Translations under genes and position numbers: made by a program | The notes under the pieces: model-generated | The model's input: only the letters and a program-made list of their open reading frames with translations | Databases searched by the model: none | What the model was told of the DNA's origin: nothing | From: the human T2T-CHM13v2.0 reference genome, Homo sapiens | Length of the DNA: 64,000 nt | Assembly (NCBI RefSeq): GCF_009914755.1 | Contig: NC_060928.1 | Reading direction: 5' to 3' (one strand) | Shown: positions 25,694 to 43,143 of the stretch, piece by piece | Numbering within the stretch: the stretch's first letter is position 1 | How the letters are laid out: the number at the start of each line of letters is the position of its first letter

Positions 25694-25845
25694 CTAGTTC
25701 GGGTGCTTTGCTTAGCACAAATGCATAAGCCCAGAATTTGCTGACAGGTCCATTGTAAAAACCCTGGTCACAAACTGACTGCTTCAGGCCTTTGGTCATC
25801 AAAATGTACACCATATAAGCACCAGTTCGAAGAGCACCGAATATA
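25694..25845 (-). CDS. ELOVL6: ELOVL6 penultimate coding exon (152 nt)
   Basis: Translates (S)[50 protein letters not shown](G). Acceptor tttcttttctcttttcattatgAAG|T, donor G|GTGAGT. The terminal G joins GA of the last exon to give Gly in frame (KxxELGDT motif). Confidence 0.97.
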
Positions 25846-27640
25846 CTTCATAATGAAAAGAGAAAAGAAACAGCATTTAGGAAAATAGTTTCACTTCTCA
25901 CATCAACCATACTTAGAAGACTGGTTGGCCACTGGCAGGAAATAGGCATAAGAATCATATTATTTGTATTTCCTTGAAAGCATCTTAAAATGTTCTGTAA
26001 ACAAGAGCTAATACAATGACTCAAGGGCTTTATTCTGAAACCATATATGATACCACTTCCTCTTCATCACTGTTCCAAAAAGAGGTCATGAAAAAGGGTA
26101 ACAGATTCAGAGCAGGATCTCATGAAGAATGCTGGTGACCTTTGAGTTTCAGCTTGGGAACTATTCCTTGGAGAGCAGATGGGTGTGGCTGCAAACTCTT
26201 GGAATTATCTCAAATTTGCCCTGTGCCCAATCATTCTCCAAGTTCTACTGGCTCTATTTCCTGAAAACCTGTTTACCTCTTTAGGCAAACTTTTCCTCTA
26301 CCTCTGGACTCGCCTTGCCAGCCCAGGCTTTTTGTGCCCTCCTTGGATTTCTCCAGCAGTCTCCAAATCACTTTCTACTGTCTGATCCATCTTTCTCAGA
26401 GATGTCAGAATGAGACTCCTTCAAAAGCTTAGCTCTGTCACCTCCTCCAGGAAGCCCACTCAGGCAGAGATAAGTGCTCACTCCCTGAGCTCCCTAGAAC
26501 CAGTGTTGTGCTAATACCACCCCAACACTGTTCTTCAATGCCCCGCAATGTGTTTAATCTCCACATAGGCACAGGTGCTCAATAAAGACTGTTGAAAAAG
26601 TGAGATTGTTGAAAAAGTGAAGAAAAAATAAACAATTTCTTTAAATCAGAGAACTGGTAAGGAAATAGGAAGTTCTGGAACACATTAGGCTCAAGAAACA
26701 CAACCTGCCATGGGAAAGCACTTGGCAATAGGAACAAGCAGCCACTATTACGAAGTGAGCCCCTTAAGTGTATGTCCCAGAGTGTGTGAACCATGCCCGG
26801 GACTGAAAGGAGAGCTGGCTGACCATGTGGGGAAGATGGACCTGCCTAGCCTTTTCTGCCCAAAAGGGCAGCATCTTACTCTAGAAGTCAGCTGAGAGAT
26901 CAATGAATGAACAACTGTTGAATTGGGAAATGGAGCCTTCTTTTCTCCTCAGAGGCACTGTTTTTTACTTAAAATATCTTAGAGTTGCTCTAGAATAAAT
27001 CATTCCACTAGGCTAACCTGTCCAGAAAGCACGCATCTGCCAACTAGAACTAAAGGTCAACTTTCTACAGTATCAAAATAATGAAGTTTAATTCCTGGCA
27101 ATTGTCTATTAAGTTGGGTCTTTGTAAGTAGCTTCTCTAAAGGTATAAAGACTCCATCAAATGGTGTTACTCTTTCCACTGTATGAAATTGTCCTGCAGA
27201 GGATTACTGTCATTTTACAGATATAGATCCTGTTTAATCCTTCAGTGGTTTTTCTCTGCACTTGGAATAAAAACCTCAACTCCTTTATCAGGACCGACAA
27301 GGCCTCTCTGCACTGCCTCTCTCTCCCCATTCTCCACTCTCACCTCCTGCCATTCTCTTCTTGTTCACTGTGAGCCAATCACTCCAGAACTTTCAGACAC
27401 TTTCAGTTTTCTGCCTCAGGACCTTTGCATTTCTCCCCTGTTCATAACAAAACTGGCTTTTTACTTTCTTATCTTAAGGAAATGTCTCCTCCCCGTGGAA
27501 TGACCTAAGTCTTTATAGTCCATTATCTGTCCTAATTTGGGGATGAAGGGTTGATTTCATTAGTAGCATCAAGTAATAGAGATTTTTCTGTCTTATCTGA
27601 ATTTTTTTTGTGTACTGTCTTTCCCTCACCAAATGATGGC

Positions 27641-27918
27641 TTTTTTTTTTTTTTTTTTTTTTTTTGAGACAGAATCTCGCTCTCTCAGCCAGGCTGGAGT
27701 ACAGTGGCATGATCTCAGCTCACTGCAACCTCCGCCTCCTGGGTTCAAGTGACTCTCCTTCCTCAGCCTCCCAAGTAGCTGGGACTACAGGCATGCACCA
27801 CCATGCCAGGCTAATTTTTTGTGTTTTTAGTAGAGATGGGGTTTCACTATGTTGGCCAGGCCGGTCTCAAACTCCTGACCTCGTGATCCACCTGCCTCGG
27901 CCTCCCAAAGTGCTGGGG
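27641..27918 (-). mobile_element. Alu (S-type, slightly 5'-truncated)
   Basis: Reverse Alu with a long T tract. Confidence 0.92.
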
Positions 27919-40999: not shown

Positions 41000-41860
41000 A
41001 GAATATGTAAAGAACAATTACAACTTAATAACAAATAACTCTATTAAAAAATGAGCAACAAAGGTAAATAGATGTTACTCCAGAGATAATACACAAATAA
41101 TGAATCAAAAGCATATGAAAAGATGCTCAACCTCACTGATCATTAGAAAATGAAAATAATGAGGTATCACGTCACAGTCATTAGGATGGCTACTATCAAA
41201 AAAATGAAAAATAATTACTGTTAGGATGTGGAAAAATTGGAACCCATGTGCACTGTTGGAGGGAATATAAAATGGCTCTATGGCTATTGAAAACAGTATG
41301 GCAGTTTCTTAAAAAGAAATAGAATTGCCACATGATTCAGCAATTTCACTTCTGGGTGTGTATTCAAAAGAATTAGAAAAAGGATTTAGAGGAGTTCCTT
41401 GTACACACATGCTCAAAACAGCAGCATTATTCACAATTGGCAACAGATGAAAGCAACCTAAATGTATCAATGGATGAATGGATAAAAAAAATGTGGTATA
41501 TATACAATGAAATATTACTAAGCCTTGAAAAGAAGATTATGACATATACTACAAAGTGGAAGAACCTGGAGGACATTATGCTAAGTGACATAAGCCAGTC
41601 ACAAAAAGACAAATACTGTATGATTCTGCTTATGAGGTATCTAAAGCAGTCAAATTCATAGATACAGAAACTAGAATGGTGGTTGTTGGGTTAGGGGGAG
41701 GCAGAAATGAGGAGTTTTCACTTAATGGGTACAGTTTCAGTTTTATAAGATGAAAAAGTTCTAAAAATTGGTTGCACAACAATGAATATATGTAACACTA
41801 CTGAACTATACACATAAAATGGTTAAGAGGATAAATCTTGTTATCCATTTTTCACCACCA
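41000..41860 (+). mobile_element. Old L1 3' fragment (L1MA/L1MB-type)
   Basis: ORF2 C-terminal remnant (MDEWIKKMWYIY...WKNLEDIMLSDISQSQKDKY) followed by an L1MB-like 3'UTR. Confidence 0.85.
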
Positions 41861-42897
41861 CCACCACAGCAGCACAAAAAGATCCCTGGAAGATGGCCTT
41901 AAATGTCTCTAACTCTAAACTCCTATTCCTTAAAGAATCACTTCCATATACCAATTAAATGGATTTTCAAGTTAATGACTTGTAAAATGTTGGGACAAAA
42001 AAAAGTCCAAATGTAGGTGACATGTGCTTTTGATGAAAATGCTAAAATAACTTCCTGAAACACATCAAAGTTTCCAACAATGAAGAGTTGATACCCTGAA
42101 ACAATTTGACCAAAACTTGAATAGGCATAGTGATGTTGCATTGTAGTATTATGGCACACAGTGGGTAATAGCAAGCTGATGAGAAAAACCGAACTCCATT
42201 TTCACACAGTCACAGCTAGCATCCTGACAGACAGATGTGAAGAAATTGCTTGATAATGACTCAGTACTTGAATCTATAAATTGAATCTTTTTATAGGTAA
42301 AAATAAAAGTATTAGTGATAAGTGCTGAAGAAAAGAGATAAACATTAGTGCAAGTGTTCTTCAGACAAAATTATATGAAGCATGAGACGGTGCAGCTGAA
42401 ACCAGAACTATTCTCTACAATTTACTGTATATAACTGTACAGTTATACATTCCATGGTGATGTTTTAGTCAAGCACAAATCACATATACAATGGTGGTCC
42501 TATATAATAATAGAACACACAGAGAAAACTGCTTTGTGGCACTTGCTTTTGGCAGTGCAGATCAAGTAGGAGAAATGATTCATATTCAGTAATGGTCCTA
42601 GGACACTTGCTTTTCCATATGAAAAAAATATGTAAATAAAAATATATACCCTCTAGGTTTGTGGAAGTACACAAGGATAAAGTCACCTAGCGAGGTGGAG
42701 CCAAGAAGGTCAAATAAGAACAGCTCCAGTCTACAGCTCCCAGTGTGAGCAATGCAGAAGATGGGTGATTTCTGCATTTCCAACTGAGGAACCGGGTTCA
42801 TCTCACTGGGGAGTGTTGGAAAGTGGGTGCAAGACAGTGGGTGCAGCGCACCGAGTGTGAGCCGAAGCAGGGCGAGGCATAACCTCACCCAGGAAGC

Positions 42898-43143
42898 TCA
42901 AGGGGTCAGGGAACTCCCTTTCCTAGTCAAAGAAAGGGGTGACAGACAGCACCTGGAAAATCGGGTCACTCCCACCCTAATACTGTGCTTTTCCAATGGT
43001 CTTAGCAAACGGCACACTAGGAGATTATATCCCGTGACTGGCTCGGAGGGTCCTACGCCCACAGAGCCTCGCTCATTGCTAGCACAGCAGTCTGAGATCA
43101 AACTGCAAGGCCGCAGCGAGGCTGGGAGAGGGGCGCCTGCCAT
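42898..43143 (-). CDS. L1 antisense ORF0 (81 aa), open; expression unknown
   Basis: MAGAPLPASLRPCSLISDCCASNERGSVGVGPSEP...IRVGVTRFSR matches primate L1 ORF0 (MAGAPPPASLPPCSLISDCCASN...). Kozak context GCAATGG. Confidence 0.75.
   Translation of the reverse strand: MAGAPLPASLRPCSLISDCCASNERGSVGVGPSEPVTGYNLLVCRLLRPLEKHSIRVGVTRFSRCCLSPLSLTRKGSSLTP

What the first reader, a model, noticed from the sequence alone, without database searches (positions are those of the whole stretch)
25694..43143. Intact L1 ORF0 with a splice donor exactly in frame with the next ELOVL6 exon: predicted ORF0-ELOVL6 chimera
Seen: the L1 is antisense to ELOVL6, so its antisense promoter points down the gene. ORF1 and ORF2 are dead, yet ORF0 (ATG 43143, Kozak GCAATGG) is open. 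It carries a donor TTTTCCAG|GTGCTG at 42953/42952, which is 191 nt from the ATG (63 codons + 2 nt, phase 2). The ELOVL6 exon at 25845 is also entered in phase 2 (AG|T = Ser), so splicing gives ...[16 protein letters not shown]...KTTKAE: 63 + 192 = 255 aa. This keeps KxxELGDT, the HxxHH motif and the C-terminus but replaces the native N-terminal region. Known: L1PA antisense promoters drive chimeric host transcripts (e.g. L1-MET) and ORF0 donors can fuse to proximal exons. Inference: a derepression-dependent alternative ELOVL6 isoform could exist. Phase agreement alone has a 1-in-3 chance probability.
Basis: partly seen in the sequence, partly recalled or inferred. Interest (0 to 1): 0.8.

Follow-up and report, generated by a model that had tools for sequence, protein, structure and literature searches.

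The report
Predicted L1 ORF0–ELOVL6 fusion, unproven
An old, dead L1 retrotransposon inside an ELOVL6 intron still carries a small open antisense gene (ORF0) whose known splice donor happens to be in frame with the next ELOVL6 exon, but this set-up is common by chance, nothing shows that it is used, and the predicted protein would probably be a crippled enzyme.

Summary
Every coordinate and the arithmetic of the finding are correct. ORF0 starts at ATG 43143. The CAG|GT donor lies after base 42953 (191 nt, phase 2). ELOVL6 exon 3 begins at 25845 in the same phase. The computed ORF is 255 aa.

The element is a full-length (6162 bp, target-site duplications) older L1PA in ELOVL6 intron 2, antisense to the gene, with ORF1 and ORF2 broken. 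The donor is the known ORF0 "SD2", used in many L1 antisense ESTs.

The set-up is not special. 14 of 29 similar-age copies keep ATG, open frame and donor, and phase match is 1 in 3.

Points against real use:
- The donor is weak.
- The paper places the primary antisense start near L1 nt 400, downstream of the ORF0 ATG at nt 452.
- ELOVL6 is absent from two L1-chimera catalogues.
- The only trace is one unspliced, unvalidated read pair in 1 of 8 gliomas.

The chimera would lose TM1, half of TM2 and conserved residues.

Verdict: a plausible but unproven new member of a known kind; low interest.

The parts
42692..48853 (+). Full-length older L1PA element (6162 bp), antisense to ELOVL6, in ELOVL6 intron 2
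   Evidence: 5' end and poly-A end flanked by TCACCTAGC. Pfam L1 ORF1p, endonuclease and RT domains. 92-93% identical to other genomic copies over 908 nt, with 40 of 7241 candidates scored. Labelled L1P1 in the hg19 table of PMC9396940; the coordinate mapping was checked.
42683..42691 (.). 5' target-site duplication TCACCTAGC
   Evidence: Read; the same 9-mer starts at 48854.
48854..48862 (.). 3' target-site duplication TCACCTAGC, after the poly-A tail
42898..43143 (-). ORF0, open for 81 codons plus stop; ATG at 43143 (L1 nt 452), Kozak GCAATGG
   Evidence: Homologous ORF0 frames in related copies; 71 aa in 3 of 4 young-variant copies. No Pfam family.
42947..42956 (-). ORF0 splice donor SD2, CCAG|GTGCTG; last exon base 42953 (L1 nt 262), phase 2
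   Evidence: The homologous 'GATTTTCCAG|' junction is used in ESTs. U1 duplex -7.1 kcal/mol. The exact 25-mer occurs 241 times in the genome.
43032..43040 (-). Site of the other ORF0 donor (SD1), without GT in this copy (CAGTCACGG)
   Evidence: ESTs use 'CGAGCCAG|' in young copies. Position 43037 is private to this copy.
43098..43262 (-). Upstream ATG (43262) with a 54-codon uORF in another frame that overlaps the ORF0 start
   Evidence: the same ATG is present in most related copies.
42805..42828 (-). Antisense acceptor inside the L1 (…CTCCCCAG|TGAGATG; first exon base 42805), 147 nt downstream of SD2; a competitor for SD2
   Evidence: ESTs CF594064 and CF594290 join SD2 to the homologous site at another locus. 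It is conserved in most of the 29 related copies. In this window it would continue the frame into the 67-aa ORF 42598..42801.
43465..43592 (+). 128-nt 5'UTR segment absent from young L1 copies; marks the element as an older L1PA
   Evidence: 4 of 4 young-variant copies (L032-L035) lack it. The 5'UTR here is 1031 nt.
43144..43343 (-). Region upstream of the ORF0 ATG (L1 nt 453-652), where the antisense promoter is placed in the literature
   Evidence: Only 1 private difference in 200 nt, against 23 in 929 nt overall. 89-91% identical to young copies. Promoter activity was not tested.
25694..25845 (-). ELOVL6 exon 3 (152 nt), entered in phase 2; acceptor …TTTTCATTATGAAG|T
   Evidence: PF01151 positions 52-101; 85% pyrimidines at -23..-4.
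17429..17853 (-). ELOVL6 exon 4 coding part (HWYHH box … KTTKAE stop)
   Evidence: PF01151 positions 103-241, E 2.7e-43; aligns to ELOVL7 6y7f_A residues 130-266.
25812..25814 (-). First in-frame ATG downstream of the L1 leader; would start a 181-aa N-truncated ELOVL6 if transcription begins downstream of the ORF0 ATG
44095..48630 (+). Remnants of ORF1 (214-aa piece) and ORF2 (pieces of 203, 74, 220, 377 and 184 aa)

Best explanation
A fixed, full-length but coding-dead older L1PA element sits in ELOVL6 intron 2, in the opposite orientation to the gene.

Its short antisense ORF0 and the family's SD2 donor have survived by chance, as they have in about half of the copies of similar age. SD2 falls, also by chance (1 in 3), in the same phase as ELOVL6 exon 3.

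The locus is therefore a latent alternative first exon of the well-known 'L1 antisense promoter / ORF0 fusion' kind. It is most likely silent or used only at trace level.

If the antisense promoter fires, most transcripts should follow one of three routes:
- stay unspliced;
- use the acceptor inside the L1;
- start downstream of the ORF0 ATG.

Only a minority could encode the 255-aa ORF0-ELOVL6 protein. That protein lacks TM1 and the cytosolic half of TM2, so it is probably inactive or unstable.

Shown here: sequence, phase, donor homology and use elsewhere, base rates, and what the protein loses. Inferred: low or absent use at this locus, and loss of activity.
For: - Sequence and phase.
- Element anatomy.
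- Base rate: 14 of 29 related copies keep ATG, open frame and AG|GT at 191 nt. The 18-mer across SD2 occurs 2831 times in the genome.
- The kind is known: about 3200 genic ORF0 loci and 57 observed fusions, as cited in PMC4908685. ORF0 has two donors that can fuse it to downstream exons.
- SD2 use elsewhere: 68 'TTTTCCAG' in the EST table, of which only 12 are followed by GT.
- Weak donor: -7.1 kcal/mol, against -8.1 for the young-L1 form and -11.9 / -12.6 for the ELOVL6 donors.
- Transcription start: the primary antisense start is near nt 400, while the ATG is at nt 452. EST motif counts rise from 23 at the start motif, through 30 and 38, to 71 mid-ORF0.
- No ELOVL6 entry in two catalogues. 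No paper links ELOVL6 with ORF0, L1PA or the L1 antisense promoter; the search ELOVL6 + LINE-1 + chimeric listed 2 papers, unrelated by their titles and not read.
- Protein loss: the TM2 hydropathy peak falls from 1.70 to at most 1.24. The helix 60-92 is cut at residue 73/74. S67 aligns with N72 of ELOVL7. Eleven invariant residues lie in 31-73. Pfam ELO positions 1-51 are missing.
Against: - The region upstream of the ORF0 ATG is unusually well kept (1 private change in 200 nt), so the promoter may still work.
- SD1 is gone, so SD2 has no rival donor.
- The crude scan found no competing internal exon with a strong donor between the L1 and exon 3. There were 42 acceptor-like sites but only 1 candidate exon, which is an upstream alternative acceptor of exon 3 itself. 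Any spliced antisense transcript would therefore probably land on exon 3.
- The stop codon lies in the last exon, which by the usual rule (recalled, not tested here) should spare the RNA from nonsense-mediated decay.
- One read pair over the L1 5' end was seen in a glioma.
- I had no access to RNA-seq junction, CAGE, Ribo-seq or proteome data, to the supplement of Denli 2015 (not held), or to the other three RefSeq transcripts of ELOVL6.
Confidence: 0.7

Rival explanations
1. One reading: when L1s are derepressed (demethylation, loss of KZFP/TRIM28/HUSH control, tumours, early embryo), the antisense promoter of this element drives an RNA that starts upstream of 43143 and splices 42953>25845. 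That RNA is translated into a 255-aa ORF0-ELOVL6 protein.
For: - Exact phase and an open frame.
- Good Kozak context.
- SD2 is used in ESTs of other loci.
- The promoter region is well kept.
- No strong competing exon.
- The ORF0 tail is basic. By the positive-inside rule (recalled) this would suit a cytosolic N-terminus in front of what is left of TM2; this step is inference.
Against: - No transcript evidence at this locus, apart from one unspliced read pair.
- Weak donor.
- A competing acceptor inside the L1.
- Most ESTs lack the ORF0 ATG.
- An upstream ATG at 43262 opens an overlapping uORF.
- No 255-aa ELOVL6-like protein among the 120 listed of 318 database hits. This is weak evidence.
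Confidence: 0.1
2. An L1-ELOVL6 spliced RNA exists but is not an ORF0 fusion. Transcription starts downstream of the ORF0 ATG, so the L1 part is only a leader. Translation, if any, starts at the in-frame ATG at 25814 and gives a 181-aa ELOVL6 without TM1 and most of TM2; alternatively the RNA is effectively non-coding.
For: - The primary antisense start is placed near nt 400, while the ATG is at nt 452.
- EST motif gradient 23 / 30 / 38 / 71.
- After the ORF0 ATG the next ATGs are a 7-codon uORF at 43076 and then the in-frame 25814.
Against: - The same lack of any junction evidence.
- ESTs are often 5'-incomplete, so the gradient overstates downstream starts.
- ORF0 translation is reported for other loci (cited).
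Confidence: 0.15
3. The element matters, if at all, not through a chimera but as an intronic full-length L1. It could be a target of silencing that dampens ELOVL6 transcription, or a source of unspliced or internally spliced antisense RNA that ends at intronic poly-A signals.
For: - The one published read pair is unspliced and runs across the L1 5' end into the intron.
- The acceptor inside the L1 is conserved.
- The first AATAAA/ATTAAA on the minus strand after the donor is at 40813.
- Silencing of intronic full-length L1s is established knowledge (recalled, not tested here).
Against: - The read pair may simply be ELOVL6 pre-mRNA.
- The 5'UTR is CpG-poor (20 CpG in 908 nt, o/e 0.29), so methylation-based control is less obvious.
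- Nothing here measures chromatin.
Confidence: 0.08

Closest known systems
L1 ORF0 and ORF0-exon fusion proteins (Denli et al. 2015, Cell 163:583; known to me only through citing papers; the paper itself is not held)
   Same: An antisense ORF in a primate L1PA 5'UTR, downstream of the antisense promoter, with a strong Kozak context and internal donors that can join it to downstream host exons. The window's donor is homologous to the second of the two donors.
   Different: - ORF0 is 81 aa here, against 70-71 aa in young copies.
- SD1 is lost.
- SD2 reads GTGCTG instead of GTGCGT.
- No evidence of transcription, splicing or translation at this locus.
- I could not check whether ELOVL6 is among the 57 reported fusions.
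L1 antisense-promoter chimeric transcripts (L1-MET type; 988 EST-supported cases in PMC4908685; CLIFinder LCTs in PMC9396940)
   Same: A full-length L1PA in an intron, antisense to the gene, so that its antisense promoter points at downstream exons. 92.1% of such ESTs are sense to the gene and start downstream of the gene's own start.
   Different: ELOVL6 is absent from the EST catalogue. In the CLIFinder table this very L1 has 1 read in 1 of 8 gliomas and 0 of 3 controls, and is not validated.
Intra-L1 antisense splicing seen in ESTs CF594064 and CF594290 (Table S3 of PMC4908685)
   Same: SD2 joined to the acceptor …CCCAG|TGAGATGAAC inside the same 5'UTR. The acceptor is present in the window at 42805 and keeps the frame open.
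   Different: Seen at another locus only: 2 of the 68 'TTTTCCAG' occurrences. Not shown for this copy.
Transposon-promoted N-terminally truncated or altered host proteins (e.g. the ERBB4, SLCO1B3 and FABP7 isoforms listed in PMC5134097)
   Same: An intronic transposon promoter replaces the native N-terminus of a host protein.
   Different: Those cases have transcript evidence and partly functional evidence. Here the replaced part includes membrane helices of a 7-TM enzyme.

Membership tests
L1 ORF0 locus | Lies on the antisense strand of a primate L1PA 5'UTR | tested here: met
   ATG at L1 nt 452 of an element with TSDs and L1 ORF1p/ORF2 domains.
L1 ORF0 locus | ATG in a good Kozak context and an open frame of about 70 codons, homologous to ORF0 of other copies | tested here: met
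   GCAATGG; 81 codons. Same frame in related copies. 71-aa ORF0 in 3 of 4 young copies.
L1 ORF0 locus | Two internal splice donors (SD1, SD2) | tested here: inconclusive
   SD2 is present (CAG|GTGCTG). The SD1 site has no GT (CAGTCACGG).
L1 ORF0 locus | Transcribed from the antisense promoter and translated | not testable with these tools
   No CAGE, RNA-seq, Ribo-seq or MS data were available.
L1 antisense chimeric transcript (LCT) / ORF0-exon fusion | RNA that starts in the L1 5'UTR antisense strand and is spliced to a host exon | tested here: not met
   ELOVL6 is absent from 10 of 10 supplementary files of PMC4908685 and 9 of 9 of PMC10879037. The only record is an unspliced read pair. Absence from these sets is not proof of absence.
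L1 antisense chimeric transcript (LCT) / ORF0-exon fusion | L1 antisense to the host gene and upstream of a coding exon; donor in frame with it | tested here: met
   (exon 2 at window 71914..71783, exon 3 at 25845).
ELO family elongase (PF01151), for the predicted chimera | Complete ELO domain with seven TM helices, TM2-7 forming the barrel | tested here: not met
   Exon 3 starts at model position 52 of 242. TM1 (helix 30-51) and residues 60-73 of the TM2 helix 60-92 are lost. Barrel architecture from the ELOVL7 preprint.
ELO family elongase (PF01151), for the predicted chimera | HxxHH histidine box and the KxxELxDT motif | tested here: met
   HWYHH and SKAPELGDT are in the computed chimera.
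ELO family elongase (PF01151), for the predicted chimera | CoA-binding residues on TM2 | tested here: not met
   ELOVL7 N72 binds the adenine. It aligns with S67 of ELOVL6, which is invariant in 25 sequences and is encoded by exon 2, so it is absent from the chimera.

The most novel reading that the evidence does not exclude
In cells that derepress older L1PA elements, this copy makes an ORF0-ELOVL6 protein. It either interferes with the elongase complex (a catalytically dead barrel fragment that still carries the C-terminal half) or supplies a tumour-restricted junction peptide (…VTRFSSIFGALR…).
Probability: 0.05. Interest if true: 0.5.

Novelty: new member of a known kind. Interest (0 to 1): 0.2.

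Why it matters
If real, it would add one more host gene to the list of L1 ORF0 fusions, this time a lipid-metabolism enzyme. It would also offer a clean test of whether an older, CpG-poor L1PA with only SD2 left can still donate a coding first exon.

As it stands, it mainly shows that 'intact ORF0 + in-phase donor' is an expected by-product of having thousands of such elements in introns. That feature alone should not be ranked highly.

Tried and rejected
- Denli 2015 (PubMed id), Speek 2001 and Matlik 2006 were not held. The positions of SD1 and SD2 were therefore taken from EST sequences in Table S3 of PMC4908685 instead.
- Passages from PMC6425141 and PMC5105311 gave nothing on donor positions.
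- Paper reading closed, before I could search the supplement of PMC10619931. Later listings (PMC7746726, PMC6639357) were seen only as title and start of abstract.
- The exon 3 peptide and the exon 2 peptide alone found no elongase in the PDB. The full-length orthologue P0008 did.
- A database search for a 255-aa ELOVL6-like protein found none among the 120 listed of 318 hits. The database is clustered and I inspected only P0003, P0008 and P0010, so this is weak.
- No MaxEnt-type splice scores were available. I used U1 duplex energies and a pyrimidine-tract heuristic, which are crude.
- Subfamily assignment beyond 'older L1PA that still has the 128-nt segment' was not possible without a repeat library. 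The link of that segment to ZNF93 and to the L1PA3/L1PA4 boundary is recalled (Jacobs et al. 2014, not seen).
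Full report
**1. The observation**

On the minus strand the window reads …CTCAGCAATGGCAGGC…, with the A of the ATG at 43143. The frame stays open for 81 codons, to a TGA at 42900-42898.

The sequence GATTTTCCAG|GTGCTG puts a GT directly after base 42953. 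That is 191 nt from the ATG, or 63 codons plus 2 nt.

ELOVL6 exon 3 begins at 25845 behind …TTTTCATTATGAAG and ends at 25694 before GTGAGT. Exon 3 (152 nt) plus the exon 4 coding part (425 nt) make 577 nt = 1 + 576. The exon is therefore entered with one base that completes a codon.

Joining the three pieces in a script gives 768 nt and a 255-aa ORF, …[17 protein letters not shown]…KMRKTTKAE. It contains SKAPELGDT and HWYHH. Every number in the finding is right.

**2. What the element is**

The L1 runs from 42692 to 48853 on the + strand (6162 bp). It has a poly-A tail and the 9-bp duplication TCACCTAGC on both sides.

Its ORFs match L1 ORF1p domains (PF02994, PF17490, PF17489), the endonuclease and RVT_1. 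They lie in separate frames:
- one ORF1-like piece of 214 aa;
- ORF2 pieces of 203, 74, 220, 377 and 184 aa.

Both sense genes are therefore dead.

The 5'UTR is 1031 nt long. It holds a 128-nt segment (43465-43592) that 4 of 4 young-variant copies lack. From recall, this is the segment lost in the lineage leading to L1PA2/L1HS, so the copy belongs to the older L1PA group.

The best other genomic copies are 92-93% identical over 908 nt; 40 of 7241 candidates were scored.

A Pfam ELO search of the genome places ELOVL6 exon 2 at window 71914..71783, outside the window. It encodes K31-F73.

**3. The donor is the known ORF0 'SD2'**

Reviews state that ORF0 has two donors that can fuse it to downstream exons.

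EST sequences in Table S3 of PMC4908685 show both:
- …CGAGCCAG|non-GT: 79 occurrences of CGAGCCAG, 49 of them followed by GT.
- …GATTTTCCAG|non-GT: 68 occurrences of TTTTCCAG, 12 of them followed by GT (cells are cut at 400 characters and a few 8-mers may be chance).

The second is the homologue of the window's donor. The first (SD1) has no GT in this copy: CCAGTCACGG, a private change at 43037.

Young copies read CAG|GTGCGT. This copy reads CAG|GTGCTG, and most related copies read GTGCCG or GTGCCA.

U1 duplex energies:

| Donor | kcal/mol |
|---|---|
| This copy (SD2) | -7.1 |
| Young L1 form | -8.1 |
| ELOVL6 exon 2 donor | -11.9 |
| ELOVL6 exon 3 donor | -12.6 |

**4. Is it more than chance?**

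Of 29 related copies (L002-L030):
- 27 keep the ATG;
- 27 keep the 191-nt distance;
- 26 keep AG|GT;
- 16 are open past codon 63;
- 14 have all of these.

The 29 are the best matches to this copy, not a random sample.

The 18-mer across the donor occurs 2831 times in the genome, and the exact 25-mer of this variant 241 times. PMC4908685, citing Denli et al., gives about 3200 genic ORF0 loci and 57 observed ORF0-exon fusions.

With a 1-in-3 phase match, about one suitably placed element in six should look like this one. 'ORF1/ORF2 dead, ORF0 open' is what the lengths of the frames predict.

**5. Would the chimera be made?**

For:
- The 200 nt upstream of the ATG carry only 1 private change, against 23 in 929 nt overall.
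- SD2 has no rival donor in this copy.
- A crude scan of the 17,353 nt between donor and exon 3 found 42 acceptor-like sites but only one candidate exon with a good donor. That one is an upstream alternative acceptor (25931) of exon 3 itself.
- The stop codon is in the last exon.

Against:
- The donor is weak.
- A conserved acceptor inside the L1 (first exon base 42805) lies 147 nt downstream. ESTs CF594064 and CF594290 join SD2 to it at another locus. Here it would extend ORF0 into the 67-aa frame 42598..42801.
- PMC4908685 places the primary antisense start near nt 400, whereas the ORF0 ATG is at nt 452. In its EST table the start motif occurs 23 times (at least one by chance). Motifs further into ORF0 occur 30, 38 and 71 times. 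ESTs are often 5'-incomplete, so this is an upper bound on the deficit.
- An upstream ATG at 43262 opens a 54-codon uORF across the ORF0 start.
- Transcripts that start downstream of 43143 would meet a 7-codon uORF and then the in-frame ATG at 25814, giving 181 aa.

**6. Evidence at this locus**

ELOVL6 occurs in none of the 10 supplementary files of PMC4908685 and in none of the 9 of PMC10879037.

Full-text searches found:

| Search terms | Papers |
|---|---|
| ELOVL6 + 'L1 antisense promoter' | 0 |
| ELOVL6 + L1PA | 0 |
| ELOVL6 + ORF0 | 0 |
| ELOVL6 + LINE-1 + chimeric | 2, unrelated by title (listing only, not read) |

Table S2 of PMC9396940 lists Id_888: hg19 chr4:110997388-110997884 (-), with L1P1 at 110997756-111000000 (+), gene ELOVL6. 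It has 1 read in 1 of 8 gliomas and 0 in 3 controls, with LCT_validated FALSE and EST-literature FALSE.

I checked that this is the window's L1. With 42692 = 110997756, the neighbouring table row (an L1PA6 in EGF) predicts an L1 5' end at T2T 113,241,766. One is found ending at 113,241,765.

The pair then maps to about 42719-42820 and 42324-42425. It is unspliced RNA downstream of SD2, and it may simply be ELOVL6 pre-mRNA. It neither supports nor refutes the junction.

No 255-aa ELOVL6-like protein is among the 120 listed of 318 database hits. This is weak evidence.

**7. What the protein would be**

A bat orthologue with human numbering (P0008) confirms that exon 2 ends at F73.

Its model (mean pLDDT 72.7, pTM 0.70) has helices 30-51, 60-92, 107-133, 138-158, 163-185, 192-221 and 229-263. 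The chimera therefore loses TM1 and the first 14 residues of TM2.

The strongest hydropathy peak of the native protein, [19 protein letters not shown] (1.70), straddles the junction. It falls to at most 1.24 in the chimera. The ORF0 part has no hydrophobic segment (maximum 0.69).

In ELOVL7, TM2-7 form the barrel, TM1 lies outside it, and N72 on TM2 binds the CoA adenine. N72 aligns with S67 of ELOVL6. S67 is invariant in 25 ELOVL6/3 sequences, as are ten other residues between 47 and 73. Pfam ELO positions 1-51 of 242 are missing.

The basic ORF0 tail would suit a cytosolic N-terminus; this is inference. Activity is nevertheless doubtful.

**8. Verdict**

It would be a new member of a known kind if junction reads exist. 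The decisive data (junction, CAGE, long-read, Ribo-seq, MS) were not available here.

Supplements I could not see may bear on this: Denli 2015, and PMC10619931, which I could not search after paper reading closed.

Noticed in passing
window 42805-42828 (-): Conserved antisense acceptor inside the L1 5'UTR. Joined to SD2, it would give a 132-aa ORF0 extension that runs through the L1 5' end into the intron, with its stop at 42598. The same splice is seen in two ESTs from another locus.
   Followed up: partly
window 25931 (-): Acceptor-like site (80% pyrimidines, YAG) 86 nt upstream of the exon 3 acceptor. It is the only 'cryptic exon' candidate in the heuristic scan of the 17-kb interval.
   Followed up: no
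window 34959-35267 and 38282-38578 (+): Two Alu-like repeats on the + strand (GGCC(A/G)GGCGC… start, A-rich end). They are antisense to any minus-strand transcript, the orientation prone to exonisation. The repeat at 27632-27922 begins with poly-T on the + strand and so has the opposite orientation.
   Followed up: no
window 43144-43343 (-): The 200 nt upstream of the ORF0 ATG carry 1 private difference, against about 5 expected from the element-wide rate (23 in 929). The margin is small and untested for significance beyond a rough Poisson estimate.
   Followed up: partly
related L1 loci L002-L030: Recurrent ORF0 stops at codon 25 and codon 61 in related copies. Both fall at CGA codons that are intact in the window copy, which fits CpG decay as the main killer of ORF0.
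   Followed up: partly
protein P0010 (database hit, Gracilinanus agilis): A 248-aa 'ELOVL6' model whose first ~118 residues are unrelated sequence, joined exactly at GDTIFIIL (the exon 4 boundary). It is probably a mis-annotated or alternative first-exon model, and it shows that N-terminally replaced ELOVL6 models exist in databases.
   Followed up: no
window 43784-44096: Unmasked gap of about 313 bp inside the L1 (ORF1 N-terminal region) in NCBI's repeat mask. It is still part of the element by position.
   Followed up: no
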